Positions 1 through 36,918 of a DNA stretch of 36,918 bases are shown one piece after another. A program made the position numbers and the translations under genes. The notes beneath the pieces are model-generated. The model was not told where the DNA came from, searched no databases, and saw only the letters and a program-made list of their open reading frames with translations. This DNA is from a virus: positions 1 to 36,918 of IMG/VR virus record IMGVR_UViG_3300045988_098643; one strand, written 5' to 3'. The number at the start of each line of letters is the position of its first letter. The first letter of the stretch is position 1.

Positions 1-16
1 CCTTTACTGTAACTAT

Positions 17-45
17 AGTATATCATAGTATTAATACTATGTCAA
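17..45 (-). promoter_or_regulatory. Sigma-A-type promoter with palindromic operator (copy B)
   Basis: Minus strand reads TTGACA (45..40), 17-nt spacer, TATACT (22..17). The spacer is filled by the perfect palindrome CATAGTATTAATACTATG (24..41). Near-identical to 35861..35889. If the contig is circular it sits upstream of the CDS starting at 36869. Confidence 0.6.
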
Positions 46-442: not shown

Positions 443-646
443 TTATTTTTCTTTATTATAATTAATCGTGCTTATACCTAATATAGTACCTAAAAATGTA
501 TCCACAGCAGCCATACAATACACAACCAAATCAATATGTTCATATCCTAATTTACCGCCAATACCACCTACAAGGGTAGTCAACGCAGGCAAAAAGATAA
601 TAGCTATCCATTTCAACACATCATAACTCTTGTTACTTAACTTCAT
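443..646 (-). CDS. Holin (small two-TM protein, Dp-1-like by eye)
   Basis: 67 aa with two hydrophobic helices (WIAIIFLPALTTLVGGIGG and LVVYCMAAVDTFLGTILGI). Immediately follows the endolysin gene. Confidence 0.7.
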   Translation of the reverse strand: MKLSNKSYDVLKWIAIIFLPALTTLVGGIGGKLGYEHIDLVVYCMAAVDTFLGTILGISTINYNKEK

Positions 647-647
647 C

Positions 648-1583
648 TTATTTCCTCACTAGAAACTTACTTCTATCTTTGTTAAAATCTTCTGCCTTAT
701 CAGTCGCTTTTACGTGATAAGTTGCATATCCAGTCAATCCGTAATTCTTGCCCTCAATCTTGCCTAGATGGTCTCCACCAACTGCGATTATCGTATCTCC
801 CGATTTTACCATCCTACCAAAATCATAGTTGTATGGTGCTGGTGCAAGTAATGCTTTGTGTTCTTGTGCTATAATATATGCTTTTTGGTATTCGTCGTCT
901 AAATAAGTTACAACTGTGTTTTTCACACTGTCTTTTTGTTCTTTAGTCAATTCCAACTTTGCCACTCCTTTCACTTCTGCTTTTGTTTGAGGTCTGCTTA
1001 TTTTTTTAAGTCCGTAAAACTCTGCTATTGTATCTGCTGTGGCTTGTGCAATCTCTTTTCGTTTTTCTACATACAACTTGCAGTCTTCTCTATTAGTGTG
1101 GAATACATGTTCAATCAACATTCCAAGCTTAGCCTTGTTGCTGTATAGTACACCATAGTAATTACTTCCCCCCGGACTTGTAGGCTGTACATAAAAGCGT
1201 TCTGGATTTCTTGTTCTCCATCTAACACCTCTGTTTTTAGTGCCGATTGCACGTGAGATATTAGCACATAAGTTTTTCATCAACTGAGGACTATTTGCAT
1301 TGATGTCTCCGTAAATCTCAATACCTCTTACACTGCTATTCGCCGCGTTTGAATGTAGTGATATAAACAAATCATATCCCTGCGCCTTGTTTCCTCTAGC
1401 TGACAATGACGGATTATCAGTTATGCTGTTCCTTGTAGTGCCTACATAAAATCCGTATTTTTCTAGTTCTCTTTTGAGTACAAGACTGTATTTATAGTTG
1501 TTGTCGCCCTCGTTTCCAATTACTGAGCCACGGTTAAAATTGCGACCTGCACCGTGCCCTGGATCTAACATTATTTTTATCAT
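648..1583 (-). CDS. Endolysin, N-acetylmuramoyl-L-alanine amidase (Amidase_3-like) with a C-terminal putative wall-binding domain
   Basis: N-terminus MIKIMLDPGHGAG...LFISLHSNA is typical of MurNAc-LAA amidases. Lies in the lysis cassette. Confidence 0.9.
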   Translation of the reverse strand: MIKIMLDPGHGAGRNFNRGSVIGNEGDNNYKYSLVLKRELEKYGFYVGTTRNSITDNPSLSARGNKAQGYDLFISLHSNAANSSVRGIEIYGDINANSPQLMKNLCANISRAIGTKNRGVRWRTRNPERFYVQPTSPGGSNYYGVLYSNKAKLGMLIEHVFHTNREDCKLYVEKRKEIAQATADTIAEFYGLKKISRPQTKAEVKGVAKLELTKEQKDSVKNTVVTYLDDEYQKAYIIAQEHKALLAPAPYNYDFGRMVKSGDTIIAVGGDHLGKIEGKNYGLTGYATYHVKATDKAEDFNKDRSKFLVRK

Positions 1584-2464: not shown

Positions 2465-4564
2465 CTACTCCTTTTCAAAAATTAGCGTGTTTGGAGCTAT
2501 GCTTGATGTGCTTGCACCTTTTTCGATTATAGCTATGTTTTTAACGGTGTCACTGCCGACTTTTTTATCTATATGATTACTGAACATGAATCTTGCATAA
2601 GCCTCAACTCTTTCATCTAATTCATCTACAACATTTTTATCTGCTTTCTCATCAACATTAGCTTGTACATTAGCTAAATCATTATTCCTAGCCTTTTGTG
2701 CAAGTTCGTTTTGCAAACCCTTAACATCACTTATGCTGTGTGTGTGAGATTTATCTGCTTTTTTATCTAACGCTGTAGATACGCTTGAAATACTTCTTGA
2801 GTTATCATTTAATAAGTCTCTCATGGTGTCCATTAACGCTGCGCCCATGCCGATTTTTGAATCAAGGGAATTACAAGTCTTAGTAAATTCATTAACACTT
2901 TCATCAAAACTTTTCTTAGATATAGCCGTATTTTCTCCATCTACATCAATTTTAACAATCCCTGCCGTCTTGCTTGTCGCTGCTTCGACTTTAAAATTAT
3001 CAACTTTTTCTGTTAGTTCTGTAGATAGCTTATCAATATCCTCTTTACTAGCTTTTGTACTTAATACCGATTTTAAATCAGTAATATCATCTGTTGTGTG
3101 TGTATGTTCTTTATCTGCTTTATTTTCACGTACATTATTTAAATTATCTTCAAAATATTTGTATGTGTTTCCTACTTTAATCATTGTTTCATCATGCGTC
3201 TTTTTCGATACAGCCATACTTTCGCCGTCTACATCAATTCTGACAATCCCTGCGACTGTACTTGTCGCCGTTGGAATAACTCCTTGCATCGTTTTATCCC
3301 AACCCTCGAACTTTCCAGCTCTGTCGCTTTCAGCTTTTGCTCTTTGTTTTTCTGCTTCAACACGATCACTTTCTTGTTGTTGTCTTGTGTTCTCATTTGA
3401 TTGACGTGTTTGTTCAGCGTTTTGTCGTTCAGTCTCTTTTGATGTTCTAGTTTTTTCAGATTCTTCTCTTGTTGTCTCCGATGTCGCTCTTTTGCTTTCT
3501 GCGTCAGCTCTTTGTTGTTCTTGTTCTTGTCTAGTGCTTTCGTGACTTGTTCTTGTGTCTTCTGATTTCTTTCTTGTGTCTTCTTGTGACTGTCTAAGTT
3601 TTTCTGCTTCAACTCTTTGTTGTTCTTGCGTTTGTCTAGTAGCTTCGTTTTGTTGTCTCCGTTCTTCGTTTTTGCTGTATTTTGTATCATTTTCAGCACG
3701 TGCCTTTTCTGCACTTATTCTTTTGTTTTCATTCTCTATTCTGATTTTTTCTGCATTATCTCTTTTTGTTTCCTCAGAATTTCTACTTGTTTCTGCAGTT
3801 ATTCTTTTTTGTTCGTCTGACTTTCTTGTACTTTCGTCTGCTTGGCGTTGAGTTTCGTTTGATTCACGTGTGCTCTCTTTTTGTTGACGTGCAGTCTCAT
3901 TTGATTGTCGTGTACTTTCGTTTGATTGTCTAGTTTTTTCTTGTGATGCTCTTGTATTTTCAGCACTCACTCTTTTCTTTTCCGCTTCAACTCTTGCGTT
4001 TTCTGTACTCAGTACGTCTTTCAATCCGTCTCTGATTTGTACTACTTCTGTATGCTTTTCTGCGATTTTACTTTCTACTGCTTCTTGTCTGACTAGACTT
4101 TCTTCAAATTTTCTTGATTGTTCATCTGCTCTGTCTAGTGCATCTTGCAGTTTTCCAAAGTCTACAACAAGGTCTTTTCCTACATTTCCGCCGTTTGCGA
4201 TACTTCTATAAACATCAACTTCTTTGATACGTGATTGTATCAAAGCATTTTTGCCCTCAAAAAGTGCAAGTTGTAGTTGTAGTTTTCCAGACTTACTAGC
4301 CATATCTGTTGATATATACACTTTGTAGAAGTCACCGTCTATTGTGCCTTTTGTGAAAAAAGACTTGTCGGGATAATTTGAATTTATCCCATAAAGTCGC
4401 ATTTCGTAGTTGCTTGATGCTTTGATTATTTCTCCGTTATTTGTGCTTACAAGTACTTTAAATCCACGTGTTTTTGTATCTCCTTGGACAATTGTGATGT
4501 CTTGTAAGTCGTTGCTATCAAAGTCAAGCACTAAATCTTTTAGTCCTATTTCGTCAAATCTCAT
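2465..4564 (-). CDS. Tail fibre / baseplate upper protein (BppU-like N-terminus, long heptad coiled coil, duplicated distal modules)
   Basis: N-terminus has DITIVQGDTKTRGFKV, about 33 heptads of ExxRxxx follow, and the motifs AGIV(R/K)IDVDGE and KADK(E/S)HTH are each duplicated. Confidence 0.8.
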   Translation of the reverse strand: MRFDEIGLKDLVLDFDSNDLQDITIVQGDTKTRGFKVLVSTNNGEIIKASSNYEMRLYGINSNYPDKSFFTKGTIDGDFYKVYISTDMASKSGKLQLQLALFEGKNALIQSRIKEVDVYRSIANGGNVGKDLVVDFGKLQDALDRADEQSRKFEESLVRQEAVESKIAEKHTEVVQIRDGLKDVLSTENARVEAEKKRVSAENTRASQEKTRQSNESTRQSNETARQQKESTRESNETQRQADESTRKSDEQKRITAETSRNSEETKRDNAEKIRIENENKRISAEKARAENDTKYSKNEERRQQNEATRQTQEQQRVEAEKLRQSQEDTRKKSEDTRTSHESTRQEQEQQRADAESKRATSETTREESEKTRTSKETERQNAEQTRQSNENTRQQQESDRVEAEKQRAKAESDRAGKFEGWDKTMQGVIPTATSTVAGIVRIDVDGESMAVSKKTHDETMIKVGNTYKYFEDNLNNVRENKADKEHTHTTDDITDLKSVLSTKASKEDIDKLSTELTEKVDNFKVEAATSKTAGIVKIDVDGENTAISKKSFDESVNEFTKTCNSLDSKIGMGAALMDTMRDLLNDNSRSISSVSTALDKKADKSHTHSISDVKGLQNELAQKARNNDLANVQANVDEKADKNVVDELDERVEAYARFMFSNHIDKKVGSDTVKNIAIIEKGASTSSIAPNTLIFEKE

Positions 4565-4567
4565 AAT

Positions 4568-4729
4568 TTACACCTCTTGCTTTTCTTCTGCTTTAAGTGA
4601 TTTCAAGTATTCAACATAAGCAATAACTCTTTGTTTGAAATTCAATCTATTCCCGATTTGCTCAATCTTAACTTCTCCCGATATCACTTTTTCAGCAAGC
4701 ATTTTGACTAATACCGATTTCTCTTTCAT
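4568..4729 (-). CDS. Small hypothetical protein (53 aa)
   Basis: Hand translation gives MKEKSVLVKMLAEKVISGEVKIEQIGNRL...EEKQEV. RBS AAGGGGGA lies upstream and the ORF fills the gap between two tail genes. Below the ORF-track cutoff. Confidence 0.5.
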   Translation of the reverse strand: MKEKSVLVKMLAEKVISGEVKIEQIGNRLNFKQRVIAYVEYLKSLKAEEKQEV

Positions 4730-4742
4730 TGTGAATCCCCCT

Positions 4743-5114
4743 TTACGCTTGTGGTTCTTCTGCTTTTTCTTCCTCGTTTGTAAACATGAGTAATAACTCT
4801 GTTACTTGATTTTCAAGTGCTGTTATTCTTTCATCTTTTTCTTTGATTTGTGCTTCTAGTTCGCTTTTGACTTCCGTTACAGCTATACTGCCTTTTCCCT
4901 CATCTTCTTCTGTCAACACTTTTGCTAATTCTTCTAAAACAAGCAAGTGTGCTGTTTGATTAAAAAAAGCTTCTTGACCTTTTTTTGCATCTGTTGCAAT
5001 ACTTCCACTTAAAAATACTTTTCTATCTGCCGATTCTAATTCAAATCCGATTCCTATTTCGTTTCCTGGTCTGAAATTTGTTCCATTGATTCTAATATCT
5101 AAATTTTGTTTCAT
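4743..5114 (-). CDS. Hypothetical tail-associated protein with C-terminal coiled coil
   Basis: The likely start is MKQNLDIRING (ATG at 5114 after AAAGGAAAAACAA). The longer track ORF would overlap the upstream gene. Confidence 0.65.
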   Translation of the reverse strand: MKQNLDIRINGTNFRPGNEIGIGFELESADRKVFLSGSIATDAKKGQEAFFNQTAHLLVLEELAKVLTEEDEGKGSIAVTEVKSELEAQIKEKDERITALENQVTELLLMFTNEEEKAEEPQA

Positions 5115-5128
5115 TTGTTTTTCCTTTC

Positions 5129-7948
5129 TTAACTCCAACTTAAAGTTCCGTCTGTATTAAAAATTATTGTTTTATTGCTCACAGTTATTCTGTTGCAATA
5201 TAAAATCCCTTCACAATCGAAGTTCGTATTGCAAGATACTCCGTGGCTTACATTTCTTATTTTTCGATAGCCTCCACTGTCAAGATACAGCCCACCTGCA
5301 TTGAGTTCGTAGAAATATCCAGCTCCAACAGCAGCAACTGTTCCGTCGATTTTAACTTCCCCACGACCACCTGTATCTCGTATCTTCACATATCCTGAAT
5401 TCGCTCCAAAATTTGCTGAAGTACCGTTAAATCGTGCAGTACTACCATAACCATTCACACCACTAGTAAATCCATTTCCATTGAATGTTCCTCTCGTGAT
5501 GTTACTTGCGTTCAAATTATCAACATTGATGTATTGTGCATTTATTGTTCCGCCATTGATTTTGTCCGCACTCAGACTACTGATTTTCGCACTTGTAATT
5601 GCTGCATCTTGTATTTCAGCTGTACCTATTGCTCCGTATCCGATTTTTGCATTTGTAATCGAAGCGTCTTTGATTTTCGCACTTGTAATTGCTGCATCTT
5701 GTATTTCAGCTGTACCTATTGCTCCGTATCCGATTTTTGCATTTGTAATCGAAGCGTCTTTGATTTTCGCATTCGTAATTGCACCGTCTTTGATTTCAGC
5801 ACTATCGATAGCTCCATAACCAATCTTTGCATTTGTAATTGCTCCATTTTCAATCTTCGCGTTTGTTATAGCACCGTCTTGTATTTCAGCTTTTCCAATC
5901 GCACCTGTACCGATTTTCGCATTAGTTATTGAGCCGTTCGCAATCTTCGCATTCGTGATTTCTCCGTCTTCGATTTTTGTCCTGTCTATCGCCGCATTTG
6001 CTATCTTCGCGTTTGTTATTTCTCCATCTTTGATTTTTGCTCTGTCTATTGCACTGTTTGCTATCTTTATGTTTGTGACAGCACCATTCTCTATCTTTGC
6101 ATTTGTAATAGCAGCGTTTTGAATGTGCACTCCTCGCACCGCATTTTGTGCGATTTTATCGCCGTCGATTGCATCATCTTGTATTTTTGAATTGCTTATA
6201 GCTCCACTCTGAATCTTTGAATTACTAACTGCATTGTCTTTCAACTTTGTATTATCGACTGCACCATTTCCGATTTTTGTGTTTGATACTGCACCGTCTT
6301 TGATTTTGTCATTCGTGATTGCTCCATCTTTGATTTTGCTTTCAGATACTGTACCTGTAATGATTTTGTCGCCATCGATTTTGTCAATGGATGTGCCGTC
6401 TACAATACTTCTTCCGTCAACTGATTTGATGATATCGCCGAAGTTGAATTCGCCTGTATCCAAATTCAGAAAACTTTTTGCGTTTTTGTCTTGTAGAATT
6501 CCTGTACGGACTAGGTTGGCGTTGAGTGTTCCAGAGTTTATCACGTCTGCAACAATACCCTCTCCAGTCGCCCACGTAGTCCAATCAAAAGTTCCGTCTG
6601 CACGTTTTCGATTTGATATAGCGACTTTTCCTGCACCTATCCAAATCCCTTTTGTTGGATTCTTGTCGATTGGTCTGTTGAATGTGTACAGACCTGGAGC
6701 AAGGTTATACTTGTTTCCACGCTTTAAATCGTATTTATACGCATCATCGTCAAACATCGACTTTTCTAGTTCATTTCTCATTTGCCCTAGATTAATCGTC
6801 ATCGACGTCTGCACTTCATCTTTCAGATTATCAATCTTCGACTCAATCAACTTCCCATAATCGACTTTTGCAATACTCAAATTATCGCCAAGTGTAACCT
6901 CTGAATTTTCTCTAGTTATCAGATTTCTTTTTATCTTGAACACTCTCGAACGATACTGCACATCTATATCTTTTCTAATTATGATTATAGAATCTCCAAG
7001 CTCCACTTCTCCGCTATCTCCAATCGTTGTTGATAGCTGCACCTTTGGTCTGCAGTTTTCAACCAACGTTTCATAAGCTTTTTGGATTAGTATGTTAGGG
7101 TCTTCGATTTCATCAAACACAACAATTTTATATCGTGCTTTTCCATCTGAAAATCCGTGTTGTAGTGTCATTTCAGGAATTTCTAAATAATCTTTTCCTT
7201 TAGCTTTATTGAGTGGATTTCCCTTTGATTTGCTCCACTCAATATCCGTTATCTGTATTCTTCTACCAAAACCGCCTGTCGCGTTTCCGTCTTCGTCGTA
7301 TTTTTCCTCGCCCTTACCACGTGGAACAATTGCCGTGAATACATTTTGTCTATCTATTTCCTTGTCTACATTTATGGCTTTATGTCCGTAAACATATCTA
7401 TTGTGCGTTACTTTTCCTCTTTTTTCGTAAACGTCCACATATCTTTTCGTTATTTTGTTTTCTGAAAATACCAGTCTGAAACCAAGCTCAACCTGAAAAC
7501 TTTCAATAAGTTTTGTCAATGCCTCAGCTCTAGTATTATCGTATAACATCAAATTAGCGTTTTTGTTTGTCAGTACTTTTCCGATTTCCCATCTACTGCC
7601 ATTAAGCACCTTGCCTAACGCAGTCGATACCGATGCATTTGTCAGCCTTTCTTCTCTGATATATCCGTAAAACATCATTTCATCATACACAACGTGTACA
7701 GCTGTTATTGATATTCCCTCTTCTGCAGTCTTTATGCTTACGATTTTATACAGTTGAAACGCCGTGTCGTCTGCTTGGTCTTTGTGTCCGATGTAAATTA
7801 CATCTTTCAACTTTTTAAACATATCCATTTCCACGACAACTTCCAATGTCATCGTCTCAGATAATCCCTCAGTTTGTTCCGCCGATATTACACTATCTTT
7901 GTATATTATGTCTGTTAGTTTTTCGTTTGCATCAAATAAATAAAACAC
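5129..7948 (-). CDS. Tail-associated lysin/Tal-like minor structural protein (prophage endopeptidase tail type) with a long 10-residue repeat domain
   Basis: 939 aa, positioned after Dit. The N-terminal part looks like a phage minor structural protein. The C-terminal half carries roughly 28 decapeptide repeats (G-A-I-T-N-A-K-I-x-D). Confidence 0.85.
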   Translation of the reverse strand: MFYLFDANEKLTDIIYKDSVISAEQTEGLSETMTLEVVVEMDMFKKLKDVIYIGHKDQADDTAFQLYKIVSIKTAEEGISITAVHVVYDEMMFYGYIREERLTNASVSTALGKVLNGSRWEIGKVLTNKNANLMLYDNTRAEALTKLIESFQVELGFRLVFSENKITKRYVDVYEKRGKVTHNRYVYGHKAINVDKEIDRQNVFTAIVPRGKGEEKYDEDGNATGGFGRRIQITDIEWSKSKGNPLNKAKGKDYLEIPEMTLQHGFSDGKARYKIVVFDEIEDPNILIQKAYETLVENCRPKVQLSTTIGDSGEVELGDSIIIIRKDIDVQYRSRVFKIKRNLITRENSEVTLGDNLSIAKVDYGKLIESKIDNLKDEVQTSMTINLGQMRNELEKSMFDDDAYKYDLKRGNKYNLAPGLYTFNRPIDKNPTKGIWIGAGKVAISNRKRADGTFDWTTWATGEGIVADVINSGTLNANLVRTGILQDKNAKSFLNLDTGEFNFGDIIKSVDGRSIVDGTSIDKIDGDKIITGTVSESKIKDGAITNDKIKDGAVSNTKIGNGAVDNTKLKDNAVSNSKIQSGAISNSKIQDDAIDGDKIAQNAVRGVHIQNAAITNAKIENGAVTNIKIANSAIDRAKIKDGEITNAKIANAAIDRTKIEDGEITNAKIANGSITNAKIGTGAIGKAEIQDGAITNAKIENGAITNAKIGYGAIDSAEIKDGAITNAKIKDASITNAKIGYGAIGTAEIQDAAITSAKIKDASITNAKIGYGAIGTAEIQDAAITSAKISSLSADKINGGTINAQYINVDNLNASNITRGTFNGNGFTSGVNGYGSTARFNGTSANFGANSGYVKIRDTGGRGEVKIDGTVAAVGAGYFYELNAGGLYLDSGGYRKIRNVSHGVSCNTNFDCEGILYCNRITVSNKTIIFNTDGTLSWS
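5581..5760. repeat. Exact 2 x 90-bp tandem duplication inside the Tal repeat domain
   Basis: 5581..5670 is identical base for base to 5671..5760. Each copy encodes KIKDASITNAKIGYGAIGTAEIQDAAITSA. Confidence 0.95.
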
Positions 7949-31123: not shown

Positions 31124-31309
31124 TTAATTTTTTATTTCAGATATGCTTATATCAAAATATTCACCAATTTCAATTAATTTGCTTAGCTTAATCATACCAG
31201 GATTTTTTTCCCAATCACAATAAGTTTGTGTTGAAATTCCAAGGTATTCAGCCATTTCTTTTTGTGTTTTATCTTTTCTAGCTCTTAATTCTTTTAAACT
31301 ATATTTCAT
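31124..31309 (-). CDS. Cro-like XRE-family repressor
   Basis: 61 aa, HTH LKELRARKDKTQKEMAEYLGISTQTYCDWE. Divergent from cI. Confidence 0.85.
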   Translation of the reverse strand: MKYSLKELRARKDKTQKEMAEYLGISTQTYCDWEKNPGMIKLSKLIEIGEYFDISISEIKN

Positions 31310-31491: not shown

Positions 31492-32154
31492 ATGAATACT
31501 TTCGGTAAAAACGTTAGGTTTTTAAGGCGTATGCGTGGTATTTCACAAGACCAATTAGCTGATAAATTAGGTTACAAGTCATTTACAACTATCCAAAGGT
31601 GGGAAACTGGAGACAATGAACCTAACTTGTCAACCATAAAAAAAGTTGCTGAAATATTTCAAATAGATATTGATAAACTTATCAAGGAAGATTTGGATAG
31701 CAAAAGCGACATCAAAATCATTGGACGTGCTAATGTTATGCGTTCATATAAATATATTGATTCTAGTGCCGCTGCTGGAAAGCCAATCCCTATCGAAGGT
31801 CAAAACTACTCAAAACTATCTGTACCCGATTCTATGCTTGGTAAGTATGCAAATCAAGACATCTTCTTTATAAATATCTCCGGAGATAGTATGAATAAAA
31901 TAATCCCTGATGGTTCCCTTGTAGGTATACTTGAGTTTAAAAGTATTTATGACATCCAAGACGGAGACATCGTCGCCTTTAATCACGACTACTGCTACTC
32001 TGTTAAGCGATATTTCTACGACCAAGAACACAACCGAATAATCTTTAGACCAGAATCTACTAATCCGCGACATACCGACATAATCTATAACTTGGACGAA
32101 GAAGAAGTTCAAATTATAGGAAAAGTCGTTATGTATAACGTAATGCTCGATTAA
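31492..32154 (+). CDS. CI-like repressor (XRE HTH plus S24 LexA-type autopeptidase)
   Basis: N-terminal HTH (LRRMRGISQDQLADKLGY) and C-terminal GDSM...VKRY Ser/Lys dyad context. Confidence 0.9.
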   Translation: MNTFGKNVRFLRRMRGISQDQLADKLGYKSFTTIQRWETGDNEPNLSTIKKVAEIFQIDIDKLIKEDLDSKSDIKIIGRANVMRSYKYIDSSAAAGKPIPIEGQNYSKLSVPDSMLGKYANQDIFFINISGDSMNKIIPDGSLVGILEFKSIYDIQDGDIVAFNHDYCYSVKRYFYDQEHNRIIFRPESTNPRHTDIIYNLDEEEVQIIGKVVMYNVMLD

Positions 32155-32176: not shown

Positions 32177-33580
32177 ATGAATACAGACAAAAAACCATTT
32201 TATTATAACAGAATATTTTTGAACTTATTATTTATATTTGGTGGTCTAACTTTAATCCCACCATTCATAATTTTAGGAGTTCCAATTCTCGTATTGGCGT
32301 TTGTACTTAATAAAAAAGCAAACGCAAAATATCCACAATACTCAATCAAAAACATTGAAGAATTTGAAGAAAAAAACAAACTATTAGGTGATATTGAACA
32401 AATAAAAAAACAAAAAGAAAACACAGTTGAGGAAGCAAATAAGCTAAAAGAACAAACTGAAAAAGAGCACGAAGAACTAATAGAAAAAACTGAAAAAGAA
32501 TATGAACGCCTAAAAGAATCTAAAATAAAAGAAATCGAAGACTTAGAAAAAATTATAGATGATTATTCTAAAGAATTAACTGTTAAATACATTGATACTA
32601 GAGACTACAGCGATATTACATCTGCCCAGATAAAAAATGAAATTTCACTTGTTAATTTAAAAATCAAAGAATTAATAAAATCGGGAAAAGCTGTTAGAAT
32701 ATCCTACTCAGATTCTAATAAAAGAGATAACAACTTAACTAAACAAATACTTAAAAATTTCACATCTGACGCTAATATCATACTAAATAAACTAACACTA
32801 TCCAATGTAGACTCATCAAGAGCAAGAATAATCAAAGCCTTTGAATTAACGAATAAAATTTTTGCAGAAGATTATATACAAATAAAAAAAGAGTATTTAA
32901 ATTTAAAACTTGAAGAATTAAATCTTTACCATCAATATAATCTTAAATTAGAGCAAGAAAAAGAACAACAAAAAGCTATCAGAGAGCAAATGGTAGAAGA
33001 AGAAAAAGTTCGTAGAGAAATAGAAAGAGAAAAAAGAAAGATTGAAAAAGAAGAAATTCAATTTAGAAATGAACAAAATAAATTAATGTTATATTTAAAC
33101 AAAGCAAAAGACGATATCGAAAAGAAATTATATCTTGATAAAATCAAGGATTTGGAAGAAAAACTTAAACTACTTGAATCAGATAAAAAGAACGTATTTG
33201 ATAGAGAAGCAAATACTCGTGCAGGATTCGTGTATGTAATATCCAACATTGGCTCTTTCGGCGAAGACATCTACAAAATAGGAATGACAAGAAGACTAGA
33301 ACCAATGGATAGAATCAAAGAACTTGGCAGTGCTTCCGTTCCTTTTGAATTTGATGTCCATGCAATGATATTTTCAGACGATGCTCCAAGCTTAGAAACA
33401 ACCTTGCATCAAAAATTCAGGGATAGAGAAGTTAATAAAGTAAATCAACGCAAAGAATTCTTCAAAGTACCACTATCAGAAATAGAACAAGTAGTAAAAG
33501 AAAACTACAACGCCACTGTTGAATTTACAGAAATAGCTAAAGCAGAACAATACAGACAAACTTTAGCTATGACTAAATAA
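32177..33580 (+). CDS. Membrane-anchored coiled-coil protein with a DUF4041-like region and a C-terminal T5orf172/MUG113 (GIY-YIG superfamily) domain
   Basis: N-terminal TM (LLFIFGGLTLIPPFIILGVPILVLAFVL), a long K/E coiled coil, and a C-terminus GFVYVISN...YKIGMTRRLEPMDRIKELGSASVPFEFDVHAMIF...LHQKFRDREVNK...EFF. Confidence 0.75.
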   Translation: MNTDKKPFYYNRIFLNLLFIFGGLTLIPPFIILGVPILVLAFVLNKKANAKYPQYSIKNIEEFEEKNKLLGDIEQIKKQKENTVEEANKLKEQTEKEHEELIEKTEKEYERLKESKIKEIEDLEKIIDDYSKELTVKYIDTRDYSDITSAQIKNEISLVNLKIKELIKSGKAVRISYSDSNKRDNNLTKQILKNFTSDANIILNKLTLSNVDSSRARIIKAFELTNKIFAEDYIQIKKEYLNLKLEELNLYHQYNLKLEQEKEQQKAIREQMVEEEKVRREIEREKRKIEKEEIQFRNEQNKLMLYLNKAKDDIEKKLYLDKIKDLEEKLKLLESDKKNVFDREANTRAGFVYVISNIGSFGEDIYKIGMTRRLEPMDRIKELGSASVPFEFDVHAMIFSDDAPSLETTLHQKFRDREVNKVNQRKEFFKVPLSEIEQVVKENYNATVEFTEIAKAEQYRQTLAMTK

Positions 33581-33693: not shown

Positions 33694-34770
33694 ATGAAAA
33701 TCACAAAATATAAAAAAGACACTCAAACGCTGTACAAAGTCCAAGCCTACATCGGCACATACGACAATGGCGTAAAGTGTGAGATTTCGCGTGCTGGATT
33801 TAAAACACAAAAAGAATGCAAGGATCTAGTAAATAAATTAAAATACGAATTTAAAAGTAACAAAAACAACAAAAAGAAAAAAACAATAACATTTTCAAAA
33901 ATATATCAACAATGGTTAAAAAACTATTCACTCACAGTAAAAGAAACTACACTCGCGAAAACTAAACAGATTTTCAATAATCATATTTTAGTAGTATTTA
34001 AAGATAAAGACATCAACAAAATAACCTCTTTTGACTGTCAAGGCTTCATAAATTCTTTAACCTCATACGCAACGGGTAAGAAAATCTACGACTACGCTAA
34101 ATCAGTTATGGAGTACGCATTTAAACTTAGCTTAATCAAAGAAAATCCATTTGAAAAAGTTATAATTCCTCAATTTAAAAAATATAAAAAGCACATAAAT
34201 TATCTTGATAAAGAAGAAGTTAAAAAATTAATGGAAGTAATCGATGATGAAATGTGGTACGCGTATTTCAGGCTGCTAATCTATGCAGGTCTGAGAAAAT
34301 CGGAAGCTTTGGCACTACATTGGAGTGATATAGATTTTAAGAAATCAACAATAACGATAAATCACACTATTGGATTTGGAGATAATAGCAAACTAATCCG
34401 TCAAGCTCCAAAAACAGAATCATCACAAGATGAAATATTGTTAGATGCAGAAACCTTACAGATTTTAAGAAATCTTAAAAAAACAACATCAAGTATTATA
34501 GTATTTAACAATAACGGCAAGTACATCTATCCGTCTCGTGTAGGTGAAGCTCTCACCAAATACACAACACTTGCTAATATAAAAAGAATAAGAGTTCACG
34601 ATTTGCGACACACTCACGCAAGTTTACTGATATCAAGCGGAGCAAGTATAAAAGCAGTACAGCAAAGGTTAAGACACGCGGATATCAAGACCACGATGAA
34701 CATTTACGCCCATTTAACCAAAGACGCGGAAAAAGATTCGCTTGACAATTTTGTGAATTATATCGGATAA
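33694..34770 (+). CDS. int: Tyrosine recombinase / phage integrase
   Basis: C-terminal catalytic region VHDLRHTHASLLISSG...TTMNIYAHL. SAM-like N-terminal domain. Confidence 0.9.
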   Translation: MKITKYKKDTQTLYKVQAYIGTYDNGVKCEISRAGFKTQKECKDLVNKLKYEFKSNKNNKKKKTITFSKIYQQWLKNYSLTVKETTLAKTKQIFNNHILVVFKDKDINKITSFDCQGFINSLTSYATGKKIYDYAKSVMEYAFKLSLIKENPFEKVIIPQFKKYKKHINYLDKEEVKKLMEVIDDEMWYAYFRLLIYAGLRKSEALALHWSDIDFKKSTITINHTIGFGDNSKLIRQAPKTESSQDEILLDAETLQILRNLKKTTSSIIVFNNNGKYIYPSRVGEALTKYTTLANIKRIRVHDLRHTHASLLISSGASIKAVQQRLRHADIKTTMNIYAHLTKDAEKDSLDNFVNYIG

Positions 34771-35114: not shown

Positions 35115-35142
35115 TTGACTTTTTAATTTATTACGATATAAT
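35115..35142 (+). promoter_or_regulatory. Sigma-A-type promoter (chassis copy 2)
   Basis: TTGACT-16 nt-TATAAT. 27 of 28 nt are identical to 36101..36128. Confidence 0.7.
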
Positions 35143-35148
35143 TAAATC

Positions 35149-35228
35149 ATCAAGCATAGTTTGAGTATGATGTAATCATATAGGTATTAGAAAGGCACTC
35201 ATTAAAGAGTGCTTTTTCTTTTTTCTTC
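35149..35228 (+). ncRNA. Small RNA (~80 nt) carrying a solitary 36-nt type II-A-like CRISPR repeat mimic (35159..35194)
   Basis: The consensus promoter lies 7 nt upstream of the predicted start. The intrinsic terminator is GCACTC-ATTAAA-GAGTGC plus a T-run (35195..35228). There is no ORF. The body GTTTGAGTATGATGTAATCATATAGGTATTAGAAAG resembles GTTTTAG-type II-A repeats. Confidence 0.45.
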
Positions 35229-35816
35229 TTCCAGTCTTTCTCTAATTTCTTTCATTTGTCTCCAGTCGTATGTTCCCTTTGCGTAAATTCTAGCATCAAC
35301 TCTATTTTTAAAACCTTCATATATTTCTAAAATTTGTTCATAATTAAAGTTATATAAATATAAATCTTTTATATCGTGTGATAAATACATATCTAAAATA
35401 TAAATTTCTTTTAAAGTATCGTGTTTTTCTTTTCCATCGTAGTCGTCTTCTAAATAAAGTAATACATTATTGATTTGAACTATAGTTTCATTATCGTATA
35501 GTTTTAAAATACATCTTCCAATTTTTTTCTTTAATTCTAAATCATTTTCTCTGTTTCTGTGGTAGCACATTTCAAATAACATTTCTGCAACGAAATCTTC
35601 GTCGAAATCTAATTCCCCATCGCATTCTTCATTTAACATATTCCAAACTGGAAGCGATAATAAATAACAATGAAAACATTCGATAGCAGCTATTATTTTT
35701 TCTTCATCTGTATTAATATCTTTATCTATATAGTTATAACTTTCAATATTTTGTTTTCCGTTCAACCATCTTGTGTTGTTTTTGATTTCTATACTTTCTA
35801 ATTTTAAATTCTTCAT
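35202..35816 (-). CDS. Acidic 205-aa hypothetical protein (candidate anti-defence protein)
   Basis: Starts MKNLKLESIE with ATG at 35816 after AAAAGGAGAAAAAAG. Driven by the palindrome-bearing promoter. No domain recognised by eye. Confidence 0.7.
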   Translation of the reverse strand: MKNLKLESIEIKNNTRWLNGKQNIESYNYIDKDINTDEEKIIAAIECFHCYLLSLPVWNMLNEECDGELDFDEDFVAEMLFEMCYHRNRENDLELKKKIGRCILKLYDNETIVQINNVLLYLEDDYDGKEKHDTLKEIYILDMYLSHDIKDLYLYNFNYEQILEIYEGFKNRVDARIYAKGTYDWRQMKEIRERLEEEKRKSTL

Positions 35817-35860
35817 CTTTTTTCTCCTTTTATTTTTTACATTTCCTTTACTGTAACTAT

Positions 35861-35889
35861 AGTATAACATAGTATTAATACTATGTCAA
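35861..35889 (-). promoter_or_regulatory. Sigma-A-type promoter with palindromic operator (copy A)
   Basis: Minus strand TTGACA (35889..35884), 17 nt, TATACT (35866..35861). The perfect 18-bp palindrome CATAGTATTAATACTATG lies at 35868..35885. Confidence 0.7.
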
Positions 35890-35892
35890 CCA

Positions 35893-36090
35893 TTATTTCA
35901 ATTTTTTTTCAATTAAATTTTTAAACTCAATTAATTCTTCTTTTGTCGCAAACTCTCTTATATATCGTCTACAGCTCGACCTCAAAGAACTAATTCTTTT
36001 TCTTTCTCGTGCCTCAGGATTATTTTTTAAATACCTTTTGTCTGCTTCTAATTGTTGCTCAATGTCTTTATAGCCTTTTCTTTTTGTCAT
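35893..36090 (-). CDS. Small basic 65-aa protein (candidate regulator of the duplicated promoters)
   Basis: Starts MTKRKGYKDIEQQ with ATG at 36090 after GGAGAAATGT. Helical and basic (RERKRISSLRSSCRRYIREF). The track ORF start at 36141 reads into the array promoter. Confidence 0.6.
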   Translation of the reverse strand: MTKRKGYKDIEQQLEADKRYLKNNPEARERKRISSLRSSCRRYIREFATKEELIEFKNLIEKKLK

Positions 36091-36100
36091 ACATTTCTCC

Positions 36101-36128
36101 TTGACTTTTTTATTTATTACGATATAAT
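36101..36128 (+). promoter_or_regulatory. Sigma-A-type promoter (chassis copy 1) of the mini-array
   Basis: TTGACT-16 nt-TATAAT. A mirrored ATTATA (36133..36138) forms a possible overlapping divergent -10 box. Confidence 0.7.
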
Positions 36129-36141
36129 ATAAATTATACAA

Positions 36142-36230
36142 ATAGTTCCCGCAAACGCGGGTGTGACCCTTTATAGTTAAGGGTAAGATCTAACGATCTC
36201 AATTAGTTCCTGCAAACGCAGGGAAGGAAG
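36142..36230 (+). CRISPR. Cas-less mini-CRISPR array: two type I-E-like 28-nt repeats flanking one 33-nt spacer
   Basis: R1 is ATAGTTCCCGCAAACGCGGGTGTGACCC (36142..36169). The spacer is TTTATAGTTAAGGGTAAGATCTAACGATCTCAA (36170..36202). R2 is TTAGTTCCTGCAAACGCAGGGAAGGAAG (36203..36230), with a compensatory stem change and a degenerate 3' end. Confidence 0.65.
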
Positions 36231-36258
36231 CTCTCTTTATGAGAGCTTTTCTTATTTT
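36227..36258 (+). terminator. Intrinsic terminator of the mini-array transcript
   Basis: GAAGCTCTC-TTTAT-GAGAGCTTT followed by TTTCTTATTTT. Overlaps the stop codon of the convergent CDS at 36252. Confidence 0.7.
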
Positions 36259-36869
36259 CTATATTTATTTACTACATTTATGTCAGTAGTTTCAAAAGTG
36301 TTGCCATCGACAGTTATATAATAAGTTGGTAGCTCATCATCATCGTATATAGGACCAGTAATACTTGCTTTATCATCATTTTCTAGGCACTTTTCGCTTT
36401 CTCTTATAGACTCTCTATCTTCAAGCATTTGTCTTCTCACAGCATTTATCACATTATCAAGTTCGTCTCTAGTAATATCAATTTTTTTATCTCTCCATCT
36501 TTGACATTCTTCTTGTTCCAGATCTAAAAAACCATGGTATAAATCTCCATATATGTTTTGAGGACTATTTTTTTCTTTAACTTTTTTGTATTTTTTTAAT
36601 AACTCTTGATAATAATCTTCGTTCCAAGCTCTTTGGCTTTCAATTTCTCTTTTAAAGTTGTTTATATAAATTTTTAATGATTTTTCAAGCGTATCGTGAT
36701 TATAAGAATCTTCTTCAAGAAATTTTGTAATCAAATCTCTATAATCTTTTTTTGTCATCTTTTCTACATTTCTGTTATACATTCCACAAATGTAACTAAA
36801 GTCTGTATTTGACTTCACTCTATACTCTTCGAATTCTTCCCATAATTCTTCTAAATTTTTATCTTTCAT
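36252..36869 (-). CDS. Acidic 205-aa hypothetical protein (candidate anti-defence protein)
   Basis: Starts MKDKNLEELWEEFEEY after AAAGGAGAAAAATT. Its 5' UTR and RBS are homologous to those of 35202..35816, but the proteins are unrelated by eye. Confidence 0.7.
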   Translation of the reverse strand: MKDKNLEELWEEFEEYRVKSNTDFSYICGMYNRNVEKMTKKDYRDLITKFLEEDSYNHDTLEKSLKIYINNFKREIESQRAWNEDYYQELLKKYKKVKEKNSPQNIYGDLYHGFLDLEQEECQRWRDKKIDITRDELDNVINAVRRQMLEDRESIRESEKCLENDDKASITGPIYDDDELPTYYITVDGNTFETTDINVVNKYRK

Positions 36870-36896
36870 AATTTTTCTCCTTTATTTTTTGTTCTA

Positions 36897-36918
36897 CCTT
36901 TACTGTAACTATAGTATA
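36897..36918. repeat. 22-nt terminal identity with window positions 1..22
   Basis: CCTTTACTGTAACTATAGTATA occurs at both ends of the window and at 35845..35866. Confidence 0.95.

What the first reader, a model, noticed from the sequence alone, without database searches (positions are those of the whole stretch)
35202..36918. Acr/Aca-like architecture: duplicated consensus promoter with an 18-bp perfect palindrome driving two unrelated acidic 205-aa proteins, plus a small basic protein
An ~85-nt block is present twice, at 35817..35889 and at 36870..36918 continuing into 1..45. Each block contains TTGACA-17-TATACT, the palindrome CATAGTATTAATACTATG filling the spacer, a conserved 5' UTR and the RBS. 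Each copy drives a different D/E-rich 205-aa protein with no domain I recognise. A 65-aa basic helical protein (35893..36090) lies between them, and its stop codon is 3 nt from the -35 box of copy A. A strong promoter with an embedded inverted repeat, novel acidic proteins and a small autoregulator is the known layout of anti-CRISPR (acr-aca) operons. Here it is physically interleaved with the two CRISPR-repeat RNAs. The 65-aa protein has no obvious HTH by eye, so it may represent a new regulator class.
Basis: partly seen in the sequence, partly recalled or inferred. Interest (0 to 1): 0.75.

Follow-up and report, generated by a model that had tools for sequence, protein, structure and literature searches.

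The report
Aca13-controlled anti-CRISPR locus, Finegoldia phage
This end of a temperate Finegoldia magna phage genome is an anti-CRISPR locus of a known design: a small repressor of the published Aca13 family sits between two near-identical promoters carrying its likely binding site, and these drive two new, uncharacterised acidic proteins, each paired with a small RNA that copies a CRISPR repeat.

Summary
The window is a circular 36.9-kb temperate phage genome, probably of Finegoldia magna. Two promoters (TTGACA-17-TATACT, 64 of 73 nt identical) each hold CATAGTATTAATACTATG between the -35 and -10 boxes. They drive two unrelated acidic proteins of 204 and 205 aa with no match in any library searched.

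The 65-aa basic protein between them is not a new regulator class. It belongs to the Aca13 family: 43% identity to the C-terminal Aca13 domain of AcrIIA32, and a family profile hits PDB 8YE6_B at E=1e-19. Aca13 is a published non-HTH repressor that binds inverted repeats between the -35 and -10 boxes of anti-CRISPR promoters on both sides of its gene.

In related prophages the same promoter scaffold carries different inverted repeats, and these change with the regulator, not with the gene driven.

Each protein gene converges on a small RNA gene. The 205-aa protein is always paired with a type I-E repeat RNA, and phage copies of the 204-aa protein with a type II repeat RNA.

The locus is therefore a new member of a known kind. 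The regulator assignment is strong. Anti-CRISPR activity of the two proteins is inferred, not shown.

The parts
1..45 (-). Promoter copy B, upstream part: -35 TTGACA at 45..40, spacer with the palindrome, -10 TATACT at 22..17. It continues across the circular junction into 36896..36870. Bases 1-22 duplicate 36897-36918.
24..41 (.). Inverted repeat CATAGTATTAATACTATG of copy B. Predicted operator of the Aca13-family protein.
36870..36918 (-). Promoter copy B, downstream part: end of the -10 region, 5' UTR and RBS (AAAGGAG) of orfB.
36252..36869 (-). orfB: 205 aa, pI 4.9, no known family. Candidate anti-CRISPR; context suggests it acts against type I-E.
36226..36250 (.). Hairpin shared by the converging orfB and sRNA2 transcripts. 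It has a proper T-tract only on the + strand, so it terminates sRNA2. On the minus strand it is followed by CCTTCCC, so read-through from orfB into the aca13-like gene is plausible.
   Evidence: sequence
36101..36128 (+). Promoter of sRNA2 (TTGACT-16-TATAAT, 11 of 12). It is 96% identical to the sRNA1 promoter and overlaps the RBS of the aca13-like gene on the other strand.
36135..36256 (+). sRNA2: two type I-E-like repeats (36143-36169 and 36204-36230, start-to-start 61 nt). The second has a compensatory change in the stem (CCCGC/GCGGG to CCTGC/GCAGG). They flank a conserved 34-nt segment. Candidate RNA anti-CRISPR of the Racr or Cracr kind.
35893..36090 (-). aca13-like gene: 65 aa, pI 10, predicted three-helix protein. 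Predicted repressor of both palindrome promoters.
35861..35889 (-). Promoter copy A: TTGACA-17-TATACT with TG before the -10 box. The -35 box begins 3 nt after the aca13-like stop codon.
35867..35886 (.). Inverted repeat of copy A (20 bp perfect, ACATAGTATTAATACTATGT). Predicted Aca13 operator.
35817..35860 (-). 5' UTR and RBS of orfA, conserved with copy B.
35202..35816 (-). orfA: 204 aa, pI 4.8, no known family. Candidate anti-CRISPR; context suggests it acts against type II.
35190..35217 (.). Hairpin terminator shared by the converging orfA and sRNA1 transcripts.
35115..35142 (+). Promoter of sRNA1 (TTGACT-16-TATAAT, 11 of 12).
35149..35225 (+). sRNA1: a short leader (about 10-15 nt), then a 36-nt type II repeat-like sequence at 35159-35194 (GTTTGAGTATGATGTAATCATATAGGTATTAGAAAG), then a terminator. 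Candidate solitary-repeat or viral scaRNA-like RNA.

Best explanation
This is an Aca13-controlled anti-CRISPR (anti-defence) island at the lysin-proximal end of a temperate Finegoldia magna phage.

Proposed mechanism. Two strong sigma-70-type promoters express orfB and orfA when no repressor is present, for example on entry into a cell. The 65-aa protein is a member of the non-HTH Aca13 family. It is probably made by read-through from orfB, because the intervening hairpin has no U-tract on that strand. It binds, presumably as a dimer, to the inverted repeat between -35 and -10 of both promoters. This blocks RNA polymerase and shuts both genes down, the promoter upstream of its own gene and the one downstream.

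The two acidic proteins are most likely type-specific inhibitors. orfB would act on type I-E and orfA on type II. Each is inherited as a unit with a convergently transcribed small RNA carrying repeats of that CRISPR type, and that RNA is itself a candidate RNA anti-CRISPR.

What is shown: homology of the regulator to Aca13; position and duplication of the operator; co-variation of operator with regulator across phages; the protein-RNA pairing.

What is inferred: DNA binding and repression by this particular protein; read-through expression; anti-CRISPR activity and type specificity of orfA and orfB.
For: Genome and host.
- CI (S24 peptidase plus HTH), Cro, integrase, terminase, amidase and holin are present, and the genome is circular.
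- Homologues of orfA are named Finegoldia magna by their sources.

The regulator is an Aca13 homologue.
- BLASTP against AcrIIA32 residues 88-141 gives 43% identity over 56 aa, E=2e-11.
- phmmer against PDB gives E=5e-5 to 8YE6_B 'A32'.
- A profile of 59 family members hits 8YE6_B residues 88-141 at E=1e-19.
- PMC12282945 shows that this C-terminal domain is Aca13. It has no canonical HTH and binds inverted repeats between -35 and -10 of acr promoters upstream and downstream of its gene. K92, W99, R107 and S111 are essential.
- The AlphaFold2 model of the window protein is three helices with pLDDT 90.

The operator.
- It occurs only at the two promoters and not in the cI/cro region.
- Related prophages keep the TTGACA-17-TATAMT scaffold but carry other inverted repeats, matched to their own regulator variant.
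- The 64-aa variant goes with ATATACCTTAAAAGGTATAT on promoters of three different cargoes (L008, L014).
- Its close 63-aa relative goes with ATATAACTTTTAAGTTATAT, a change made symmetrically in both half-sites (L013).
- The 59-aa variant goes with TATAATACnnGTATTATA (L012, L019).
- A 71-aa protein goes with TTATACAAGTGTATAA (L020, L021).
- orfB homologues are found under three different inverted repeats, so the repeat follows the regulator and not the cargo.
- A Fusobacterium-type phage (L265) and Streptococcus phage Javan5 also have an inverted repeat between -35 and -10 next to family members.

Protein-RNA modules.
- Every orfB homologue locus (window, L007-L010, L020-L022) has the two-repeat I-E RNA converging on it.
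- Every phage-borne orfA homologue (window, L014-L017, L018/L019) has the type II repeat-like RNA.
- Other cargo proteins pair with I-B repeat RNAs.

CRISPR context.
- F. magna plasmid pFMC carries a I-E Cascade and an array with a similar repeat.
- Real type II arrays use the same repeat family as sRNA1.
- Co-location of RNA anti-CRISPRs with acr and aca genes is documented (PMC10651486; bioRxiv 10.64898/2026.06.01.729453; 10.1101/2024.10.29.618823).

orfA and orfB have typical Acr traits.
- Both have a narrow distribution: 30 and 6 clusters among 5.8 billion proteins.
- Neither matches Pfam, PHROGs, PADLOC, NCBIfam or PDB sequences.
Against: - No experiment. Binding, repression and CRISPR inhibition are all untested for these sequences.
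- orfA and orfB show no similarity to any known Acr, and about 205 aa is large for an Acr.
- In PMC12282945 only one of three unknown genes under acr-aca13 promoters inhibited the Cas9s tested. Aca13 control alone is therefore a moderate predictor.
- Of the four residues essential in AcrIIA32, only S111 is identical (S35). W99 is Y20, R107 is K31 and K92 is Q13. Q13 is, however, the family-wide nearly invariant residue.
- One related locus is discordant. In L019 the promoter of the orfA homologue carries the window-type repeat next to a 59-aa regulator whose other promoter has a different repeat. Co-variation is therefore not perfect. Transfer of the whole module is a sufficient explanation but is unproven.
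- Plasmid-borne orfA homologues (307-315 aa) have neither the RNA nor this promoter.
- An orfB-like domain is embedded in 690-920-aa phage proteins. The one whose contig I read is encoded right after the portal gene. This fits a broader or different role.
- No separate promoter for the aca13-like gene was found. Its expression by read-through is an inference from the missing U-tract.
Confidence: 0.72

Rival explanations
1. The regulator is Aca13-like, but the cargo proteins are not CRISPR inhibitors. They would counter other defences, such as restriction or abortive infection, or act as lysogenic-conversion or superinfection-exclusion genes. In that case they merely share a variable region with the CRISPR-repeat RNAs.
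For: - Aca-type regulators also control non-Acr anti-defence genes (bioRxiv 10.64898/2026.07.27.740549).
- Two of three Aca13-controlled candidates in PMC12282945 showed no Cas9 inhibition.
- In Streptococcus phage Javan5 the family member lies beside an Abi gene and paratox.
- Plasmid homologues of orfA sit among SSB, DpnD-PcfM and DarA_C genes without any repeat RNA.
- The orfB-like domain occurs inside large phage proteins, one of them encoded next to the portal gene.
Against: The pairing is strict: orfB with the I-E RNA and phage orfA with the type II RNA. It holds across loci that differ in regulator, operator and neighbouring module. That is hard to explain if the protein and the RNA act on unrelated targets.
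Confidence: 0.2
2. orfA and orfB are accessory factors of the RNAs rather than inhibitors in their own right. They might bind, stabilise or load the repeat RNAs onto Cas proteins, or protect complexes loaded with the viral RNA.
For: - Each protein gene and its RNA gene form a convergent unit sharing one hairpin.
- Published cases show Acr proteins that discriminate between host-guide and viral-RNA complexes: AcrIIA25.1 with vsgRNA and AcrIF24 with Cracr.
Against: - orfB has no recognisable RNA-binding domain or fold.
- Both proteins are strongly acidic (pI 4.8 and 4.9), which is unusual for RNA binders.
- orfA homologues exist without the RNA on plasmids.
Confidence: 0.06
3. The palindrome is bound by some other factor, such as a host regulator or another phage protein, and the 65-aa protein has a different role. 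The duplication would then only reflect duplication of a promoter cassette.
For: - A perfect 18-bp palindrome is not rare in this genome.
- L019 shows the window-type repeat next to a different regulator variant.
Against: - The 65-aa protein is homologous to a protein shown to bind exactly this kind of site at exactly this promoter position.
- The repeat co-varies with the regulator variant in five of six locus types.
- The repeat is absent from the cI/cro operator region.
Confidence: 0.03

Closest known systems
acr-aca13 loci of Streptococcus prophages (Aca13 = C-terminal domain of AcrIIA32; PMC8934645 and PMC12282945)
   Same: - The regulator is homologous (43% identity; profile E=1e-19).
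- It has no HTH and is predicted helical.
- The inverted repeat lies between -35 and -10.
- The same operator is found on promoters upstream and downstream of the aca gene.
- The locus lies at the lysin-proximal end of a temperate phage.
- The cargo consists of small unknown proteins.
   Different: - The host is Finegoldia (Tissierellia), not Streptococcus.
- The regulator is free-standing, not fused to an Acr domain.
- The operator sequence is different.
- The cargo proteins are unrelated to AcrIIA3, 27, 32 or 35 and are about 205 aa long.
- Each cargo gene is paired with a convergent CRISPR-repeat RNA gene, and the repeats include type I ones.
Aca14, the ribbon-helix-helix Aca of Pasteurella multocida (bioRxiv 10.64898/2026.07.27.740549)
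   Same: It is a small non-HTH repressor. An AT-rich inverted repeat overlaps the core promoter elements. One regulator controls two adjacent anti-defence operons.
   Different: There is no sequence similarity (BLASTP finds no alignment). The window protein is predicted to be all-helical with no beta-strand. Aca14 matches Pfam RHH_1 and the window protein does not.
RNA anti-CRISPR islands: Racr solitary repeats (PMC10651486), viral crRNA-like regulators or Cracr (10.1101/2024.10.29.618823), and viral sgRNA and scaRNA (10.64898/2026.06.01.729453)
   Same: Phage-encoded small RNAs carrying CRISPR repeats lie next to acr or aca genes. Cooperation between the RNAs and co-encoded Acr proteins has been reported.
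   Different: Here the arrangement is a repeated cassette: a palindrome promoter, a protein gene, a shared hairpin, and an RNA gene with its own conserved promoter reading the other way. The cassettes shuffle between phages, and I-E, type II and I-B cassettes occur in one phage lineage. None of these RNAs has been tested.

Membership tests
Aca13 (anti-CRISPR-associated repressor, non-HTH) | Sequence homology to Aca13, the C-terminal domain of AcrIIA32 (residues about 88-141) | tested here: met
   BLASTP gives 43% identity over 56 aa, E=2e-11. phmmer against PDB 8YE6_B gives E=5e-5. The family profile gives E=1e-19.
Aca13 (anti-CRISPR-associated repressor, non-HTH) | Small helical protein without a canonical helix-turn-helix | tested here: met
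   The AlphaFold2 model has three helices (10-23, 25-47, 50-64) with pLDDT 90. There is no HTH or other Pfam or NCBIfam match above cut-off.
Aca13 (anti-CRISPR-associated repressor, non-HTH) | Inverted repeat between the -35 and -10 elements of promoters both upstream and downstream of the aca gene | tested here: met
   An identical 18-bp repeat fills the 17-nt spacer region of both promoters. The same arrangement, with other repeats, is seen in related loci.
Aca13 (anti-CRISPR-associated repressor, non-HTH) | Conservation of the residues essential for repression in AcrIIA32 (K92, W99, R107, S111) | tested here: inconclusive
   The aligned residues are Q13, Y20, K31 and S35. One is identical and two are conservative. 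K92 aligns with the family's nearly invariant Q.
Aca13 (anti-CRISPR-associated repressor, non-HTH) | Specific DNA binding to the inverted repeat and repression of the promoters | not testable with these tools
   Only indirect evidence is available: the repeat co-varies with the regulator variant across phages, with one discordant promoter in L019.
Anti-CRISPR proteins (Acr), for orfA and orfB | Inhibition of a CRISPR-Cas system | not testable with these tools
Context only: Aca13-type control and pairing with CRISPR-repeat RNAs.
Anti-CRISPR proteins (Acr), for orfA and orfB | Homology to a described Acr family | tested here: not met
   No matches in Pfam, PHROGs, PADLOC or NCBIfam. No matches among PDB sequences. 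No tblastn hit in 50,697 phage genomes. Foldseek of the orfB model against PDB and BFVD finds nothing at E<=0.001. A dedicated Acr database was not available.
Anti-CRISPR proteins (Acr), for orfA and orfB | Encoded in an operon or locus controlled by a known Aca | tested here: met
   Both genes start 44-45 nt downstream of promoters carrying the predicted Aca13 operator.
Aca14 / ribbon-helix-helix regulators | N-terminal beta-strand followed by two helices; match to RHH profiles; similarity to WP_005725436 | tested here: not met
   BLASTP finds no alignment. There is no RHH Pfam match, whereas Aca14 itself matches RHH_1. The model has no strand.

The most novel reading that the evidence does not exclude
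The locus is built from exchangeable two-component anti-CRISPR cassettes. In each, a type-specific Acr protein has co-evolved with a convergently transcribed repeat RNA aimed at the same CRISPR type: orfB with I-E, orfA with type II, and other proteins with I-B.

Because the orfB transcript probably reads through, antisense to the I-E RNA gene, Aca13 repression would switch the cassette. Early on it would give protein-based inhibition. Later, or in the lysogen, it would give RNA-based inhibition.

If true, orfA and orfB would be two new Acr families. They might, like AcrIIA25.1 and AcrIF24, spare Cas complexes loaded with the viral RNA.
Probability: 0.3. Interest if true: 0.7.

Novelty: new member of a known kind. 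Interest (0 to 1): 0.5.

Why it matters
- It extends the experimentally defined Aca13 regulator family from Streptococcus to phages of Finegoldia and, by the family search, of Fusobacterium, Clostridium and Enterococcus. It also gives a natural series of regulator-operator pairs for studying how this non-HTH fold reads DNA.
- It nominates two new protein families, and several more in related phages, as anti-CRISPR candidates. Each comes with a specific, testable prediction of its target type, read from the partner RNA.
- If the protein-RNA pairing is functional, searching for such cassettes would be a direct way to find type-specific Acrs in poorly studied Gram-positive anaerobes.

Tried and rejected
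- Ribbon-helix-helix or Aca14-like regulator. I suspected this by eye from related small proteins. It is rejected for the window protein: no BLASTP alignment to Aca14, no RHH profile match, and an all-helical model.
- Palindrome as a CI/Cro operator. Rejected: it is absent from the cI-cro intergenic region, which has its own repeats built on TTGAT/ATCAAG.
- Near and protein-level searches of 50,697 phage genomes with the locus and with orfA and orfB gave no match.
- Rfam search of the region found only chance-level hits.
- A protein-pattern scan of IMG/VR with the small protein confirmed nothing. A DNA-pattern scan gave only 3 loci.
- Foldseek of the small-protein model against PDB gave no hits. 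The Aca13 domain may not be modelled in 8YE6; I did not check this.
- Foldseek of the orfB model against PDB and BFVD gave nothing significant.
- The genome-contig scan used too loose a pattern (GATGTAAT-gap-ATAGGTAT).
- I searched for targets of the I-E inter-repeat segment and of the sRNA1 leader in the loci at hand. There was no promoter target. The only result was the similarity to the pFMC array trailer, listed under things noticed in passing.
Full report
WHAT THE WINDOW IS

The 36,918-base window has identical 22-bp ends, so it is a circularly permuted genome of 36,896 bp with 33% G+C. It encodes the following:
- a CI-type repressor (HTH plus S24 peptidase, 31492-32154);
- a Cro-like HTH protein (31309..31124);
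- a tyrosine integrase (33694-34770);
- a large terminase, an amidase (1583..648) and a Dp-1-type holin (646..443);
- a PD-Lambda-1 defence gene between cI and int (32177-33580).

No related phage is in the 50,697-genome phage collection at the DNA level. Homologues of the locus proteins come from metagenomes and from records named Finegoldia magna. The finding lies between the lysis genes and the attachment-site/integrase region. This is where temperate phages of Gram-positive bacteria commonly keep accessory genes; that statement is my own background knowledge.

CHECK OF THE OBSERVATION

All stated features are present.

On the minus strand, copy A reads TTGACATAGTATTAATACTATGTTATACT, followed by a 44-nt leader with AAAAGGAG and the ATG of a 204-aa ORF (35816..35202). 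Copy B reads TTGACATAGTATTAATACTATGATATACT, followed by a related leader and the ATG of a 205-aa ORF (36869..36252). Copy B runs across the circular junction.

The two 73-nt blocks share 64 positions. The 18-mer palindrome occurs only at these two places even with 3 mismatches allowed, against 0.05 expected. The promoter scan scores copy A 11 of 12, with a TG before the -10 box.

The two proteins are acidic (pI 4.8 and 4.9). They are unrelated to each other (hhalign probability 0.1%). The 65-aa ORF (36090..35893, pI 10.0) ends 3 nt before the -35 box of copy A.

One caution applies. A perfect palindrome of 18 bp or more arises in about a quarter of Markov-1 simulations of this genome. The palindrome alone is therefore not the signal. 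Its exact duplication at the same promoter position is.

THE SMALL PROTEIN IS AN Aca13 HOMOLOGUE

Pfam gives nothing above cut-off, and PHROGs gives only an unannotated family, phrog_2277. tblastn finds relatives at the ends of Streptococcus agalactiae prophages and in Fusobacterium phage FNU4.

A profile search of 5.8 billion proteins returns 373 small proteins (about 56-80 aa). The named ones come from Streptococcus, Fusobacterium, Clostridium, Enterococcus and unclassified phages. A profile of 59 of them hits one solved structure, 8YE6 chain B 'A32', at residues 88-141 with E=1e-19. The window protein alone hits it at E=5e-5. It aligns pairwise at 43% identity over 56 residues, E=2e-11.

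A32 is AcrIIA32. PMC12282945 shows the following about it:
- Its C-terminal domain is Aca13.
- Aca13 lacks a canonical HTH and contacts DNA through a 'coiled alpha-helix'.
- It binds inverted repeats lying between the -35 and -10 elements.
- It represses acr promoters both upstream and downstream of its gene.
- K92, W99, R107 and S111 are essential.
- Genes under such promoters were used to find a new Acr, AcrIIA35.

The AlphaFold2 model of the window protein is three helices at pLDDT 90. The residues aligned with the four essential ones are Q13, Y20, K31 and S35. The regulator is therefore a member of a described family, not a new class.

I first suspected a ribbon-helix-helix protein like the recently described Aca14. 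That is not supported for this protein.

THE OPERATOR FOLLOWS THE REGULATOR

Contigs encoding homologues of orfA and orfB and three IMG/VR contigs give several related Finegoldia prophage ends. All keep the promoter scaffold TTGACA/T-17-TATAMT, but the spacer holds different inverted repeats. The small protein encoded just upstream differs accordingly:

| Locus | Regulator | Inverted repeat |
|---|---|---|
| window | 65 aa | CATAGTATTAATACTATG, twice |
| L008, L014 | 64 aa | ATATACCTTAAAAGGTATAT, on promoters of three different cargoes |
| L013 | 63 aa, close relative of the 64-aa form | ATATAACTTTTAAGTTATAT, the same base changed in both half-sites |
| L012, L019 | 59 aa | TATAATAC-nn-GTATTATA |
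| L020, L021 | 71 aa, different C-terminal half | TTATACAAGTGTATAA, twice |

orfB homologues sit behind three different repeats, so the repeat tracks the regulator and not the cargo.

A Fusobacterium-type locus (L265, CATACTTGTTCAAGTATG) and Streptococcus phage Javan5 (TATAGTACATGTACTATA) show the same design.

There is one exception. In L019 the promoter of the orfA homologue carries the window-type repeat and leader beside the 59-aa regulator. I read this as acquisition of the whole orfA cassette. It does mean that co-variation is not perfect.

THE CARGO PROTEINS

orfA has 30 homologue clusters, all from Finegoldia-type sources. Phage copies are 204-266 aa. Copies of 307-315 aa lie on F. magna plasmid pFMC and similar contigs, among SSB, DpnD-PcfM and DarA_C genes. 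These long copies have a second copy of a unit of about 50 aa.

orfB has only 6 clusters in the indexed search. An exhaustive profile search of 1.84 billion representatives adds one free-standing 204-aa relative. It also finds an orfB-like domain inside 690-920-aa phage proteins. One of these lies directly after the portal gene and carries an HExxH motif. The C-terminal motif ITGPIYDDDxxPTYYI...ET.D..V..YR occurs in three more large proteins.

The orfB model (pLDDT 85) has seven helices, then a three-stranded sheet and a final helix. It has no significant match in PDB or BFVD.

Neither protein matches Pfam, PHROGs, PADLOC, NCBIfam or any PDB sequence. Cargo proteins of the related loci are equally unknown. 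This profile fits Acr proteins: narrow distribution, no known family, acidic, behind an Aca operator. It does not prove Acr function.

THE PROTEIN-RNA CASSETTES

On the + strand, two promoters that are 96% identical (TTGACT-16-TATAAT, 35115-35142 and 36101-36128) face the 3' ends of orfA and orfB. Each drives a short structured RNA ending in a hairpin with a T-tract.

sRNA2 has two type I-E-like repeats 61 nt apart. The second has a compensatory change in the stem. F. magna plasmid pFMC carries cse1-cas7-cas5-cas6e and an array with the repeat GTTTTACCCGCACATGCGGGGGTGTTCCT.

sRNA1 has a 36-nt sequence of a type II repeat family. Real arrays with 36-nt repeats and a 66-nt period use this family, for example GTTTGAGAATGATGTAATTTCATATGGGAATCAAGC.

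Across the loci fetched:
- every orfB homologue is followed by the I-E RNA;
- every phage orfA homologue is followed by the type II-like RNA;
- other cargo proteins (188 aa in L008; 159 plus 158 aa in L014; the L012 pair) are followed by RNAs with type I-B-like repeats.

The cassettes recombine between phages that differ in regulator and operator.

Recent work describes phage RNAs that mimic repeats or regulatory guides, and reports that they cluster and cooperate with Acr and Aca genes (PMC10651486; 10.1101/2024.10.29.618823; 10.64898/2026.06.01.729453). The general idea is therefore known. The regular cassette form seen here is, as far as I could find, not described.

HOW IT MOST LIKELY WORKS

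Without repressor, the two near-consensus promoters express orfB and orfA.

The hairpin after orfB has a U-tract only for the sRNA strand. On the orfB strand it is followed by CCTTCCC, and no separate promoter for the aca13-like gene was detected. orfB transcripts therefore probably continue into that gene, which would make an orfB-aca13 operon.

The Aca13-like protein then occupies the repeats that span the spacer and touch both hexamers. This shuts down its own synthesis and that of both cargo proteins, as shown for Streptococcus Aca13.

The partner RNAs are made from their own promoters. Because transcription is convergent, repression of the protein promoters could relieve interference on the RNA genes. 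That last step is speculation.

The assignments of orfB to type I-E and orfA to type II rest only on the pairing.

VERDICT

The acr-aca reading is supported at the level of the regulator and architecture. The 'new regulator class' idea is not supported.

The locus is a new member of a known kind. It has two new candidate Acr families and an unusually regular protein-RNA cassette organisation. Confidence is about 0.9 in the Aca13 assignment and about 0.5-0.6 that both cargo proteins are CRISPR inhibitors.

Noticed in passing
window 36170-36185; L008 about 6660-6680; L023 (NC_010371 pFMC) about 1540-1560 on the minus strand: The first 16 nt after repeat 1 of sRNA2 are TTTATAGTTAAGGGTA in the window and TTTATAGTTAAGAGTA in L008. 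They match TTTATATTTAAGAGTA (14/16 and 15/16). That segment is a 16-nt stretch flanked by degenerate I-E repeats at the trailer end of the CRISPR array on F. magna plasmid pFMC, and the match is in the same register relative to the repeat. This is the pattern expected if sRNA2 copies a host crRNA-like regulator (a Cracr-type RNA). No promoter target was found in the loci at hand.
   Followed up: partly
window 35143-35194: In sRNA1 the type II repeat-like 36-mer is preceded by only about 10-15 transcribed nt. This leader differs by small indels between phages: window ..ATCATCAAGCATA, L014 ..ATTATCAAACAAGCA, L019 ..ATCATCAAACACATA. The layout resembles the viral scaRNAs with truncated guides that target cas9 promoters. 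I could not retrieve a Finegoldia cas9 promoter to test this.
   Followed up: partly
L020 1571-1786 and L021 4717-4932: In these prophages the regulator position is held by a 71-aa protein. Its N-terminal third resembles the Aca13 family (YKTSEARRRANAKW). By eye, its C-terminal part looks like strand-helix-helix (KRFNIVFNVEEDKKIIDFLYSQENKNQFIKNLLEKEL), the layout described for Aca14. It comes with its own repeat, TTATACAAGTGTATAA, on both promoters. There is no Pfam match and no BLASTP alignment to Aca14.
   Followed up: partly
L019 1140-1225: This promoter is discordant. The orfA homologue here is driven by a promoter with the window-type repeat (CATAGTATTAATACTAT) and leader, although the adjacent 59-aa regulator goes with TATAATACGGGTATTATA on the other promoter. 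This suggests that whole cassettes, promoter included, move between phages.
   Followed up: partly
L024 5001-7622 (P0157); also P0158, P0159, P0161-P0163: An orfB-like domain, or only its C-terminal motif of about 55 aa, is embedded in phage proteins of 525-920 aa. These share a conserved N-terminus and a C-terminal region with an HExxH motif. P0157 is encoded directly after the portal gene and a DUF6275 gene. None has a Pfam match.
   Followed up: partly
L023 (NC_010371 pFMC) 2598-6566: F. magna plasmid pFMC carries cse1, cas7e, cas5e, cas6e and a CRISPR array. No cas3, cas1 or cas2 is annotated next to them. The array has degenerate repeats at both ends. A 315-aa orfA homologue lies about 5 kb away on the same plasmid.
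   Followed up: no
L001 (Fusobacterium phage FNU4) 1315-2898: In FNU4 the Aca13-like sequence is the N-terminal part of a 142-aa protein. The next gene is annotated 'putative CRISPR-associated protein Cas5'. Neither protein has a Pfam match.
   Followed up: partly
window 32177-33580: A 467-aa protein between cI and the integrase matches the PD-Lambda-1 defence family (E=2e-120) and has DUF4041 and T5orf172 domains. The phage therefore carries a defence gene as well as the counter-defence locus.
   Followed up: no
L008 4890-4915; L013, L019, L020 leaders of the first promoter: The 5' leaders of the first palindrome promoter in several related loci share a hairpin, TGTAATC-AAGAA-GATTACA. The window's two leaders instead share ATAGTTACAGTAAAGG. 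Whether these are RNA control elements like those reported for Aca1 and Aca2 was not examined.
   Followed up: no
window 35115-35142 and 36101-36128; the same element in L007-L022: The promoter of the small RNA genes (TTGACTTTTTWATTYATT..TATAAT) is conserved across all related loci, whatever RNA it drives. At the second copy its -35 region overlaps the RBS of the aca13-like gene on the opposite strand.
   Followed up: partly
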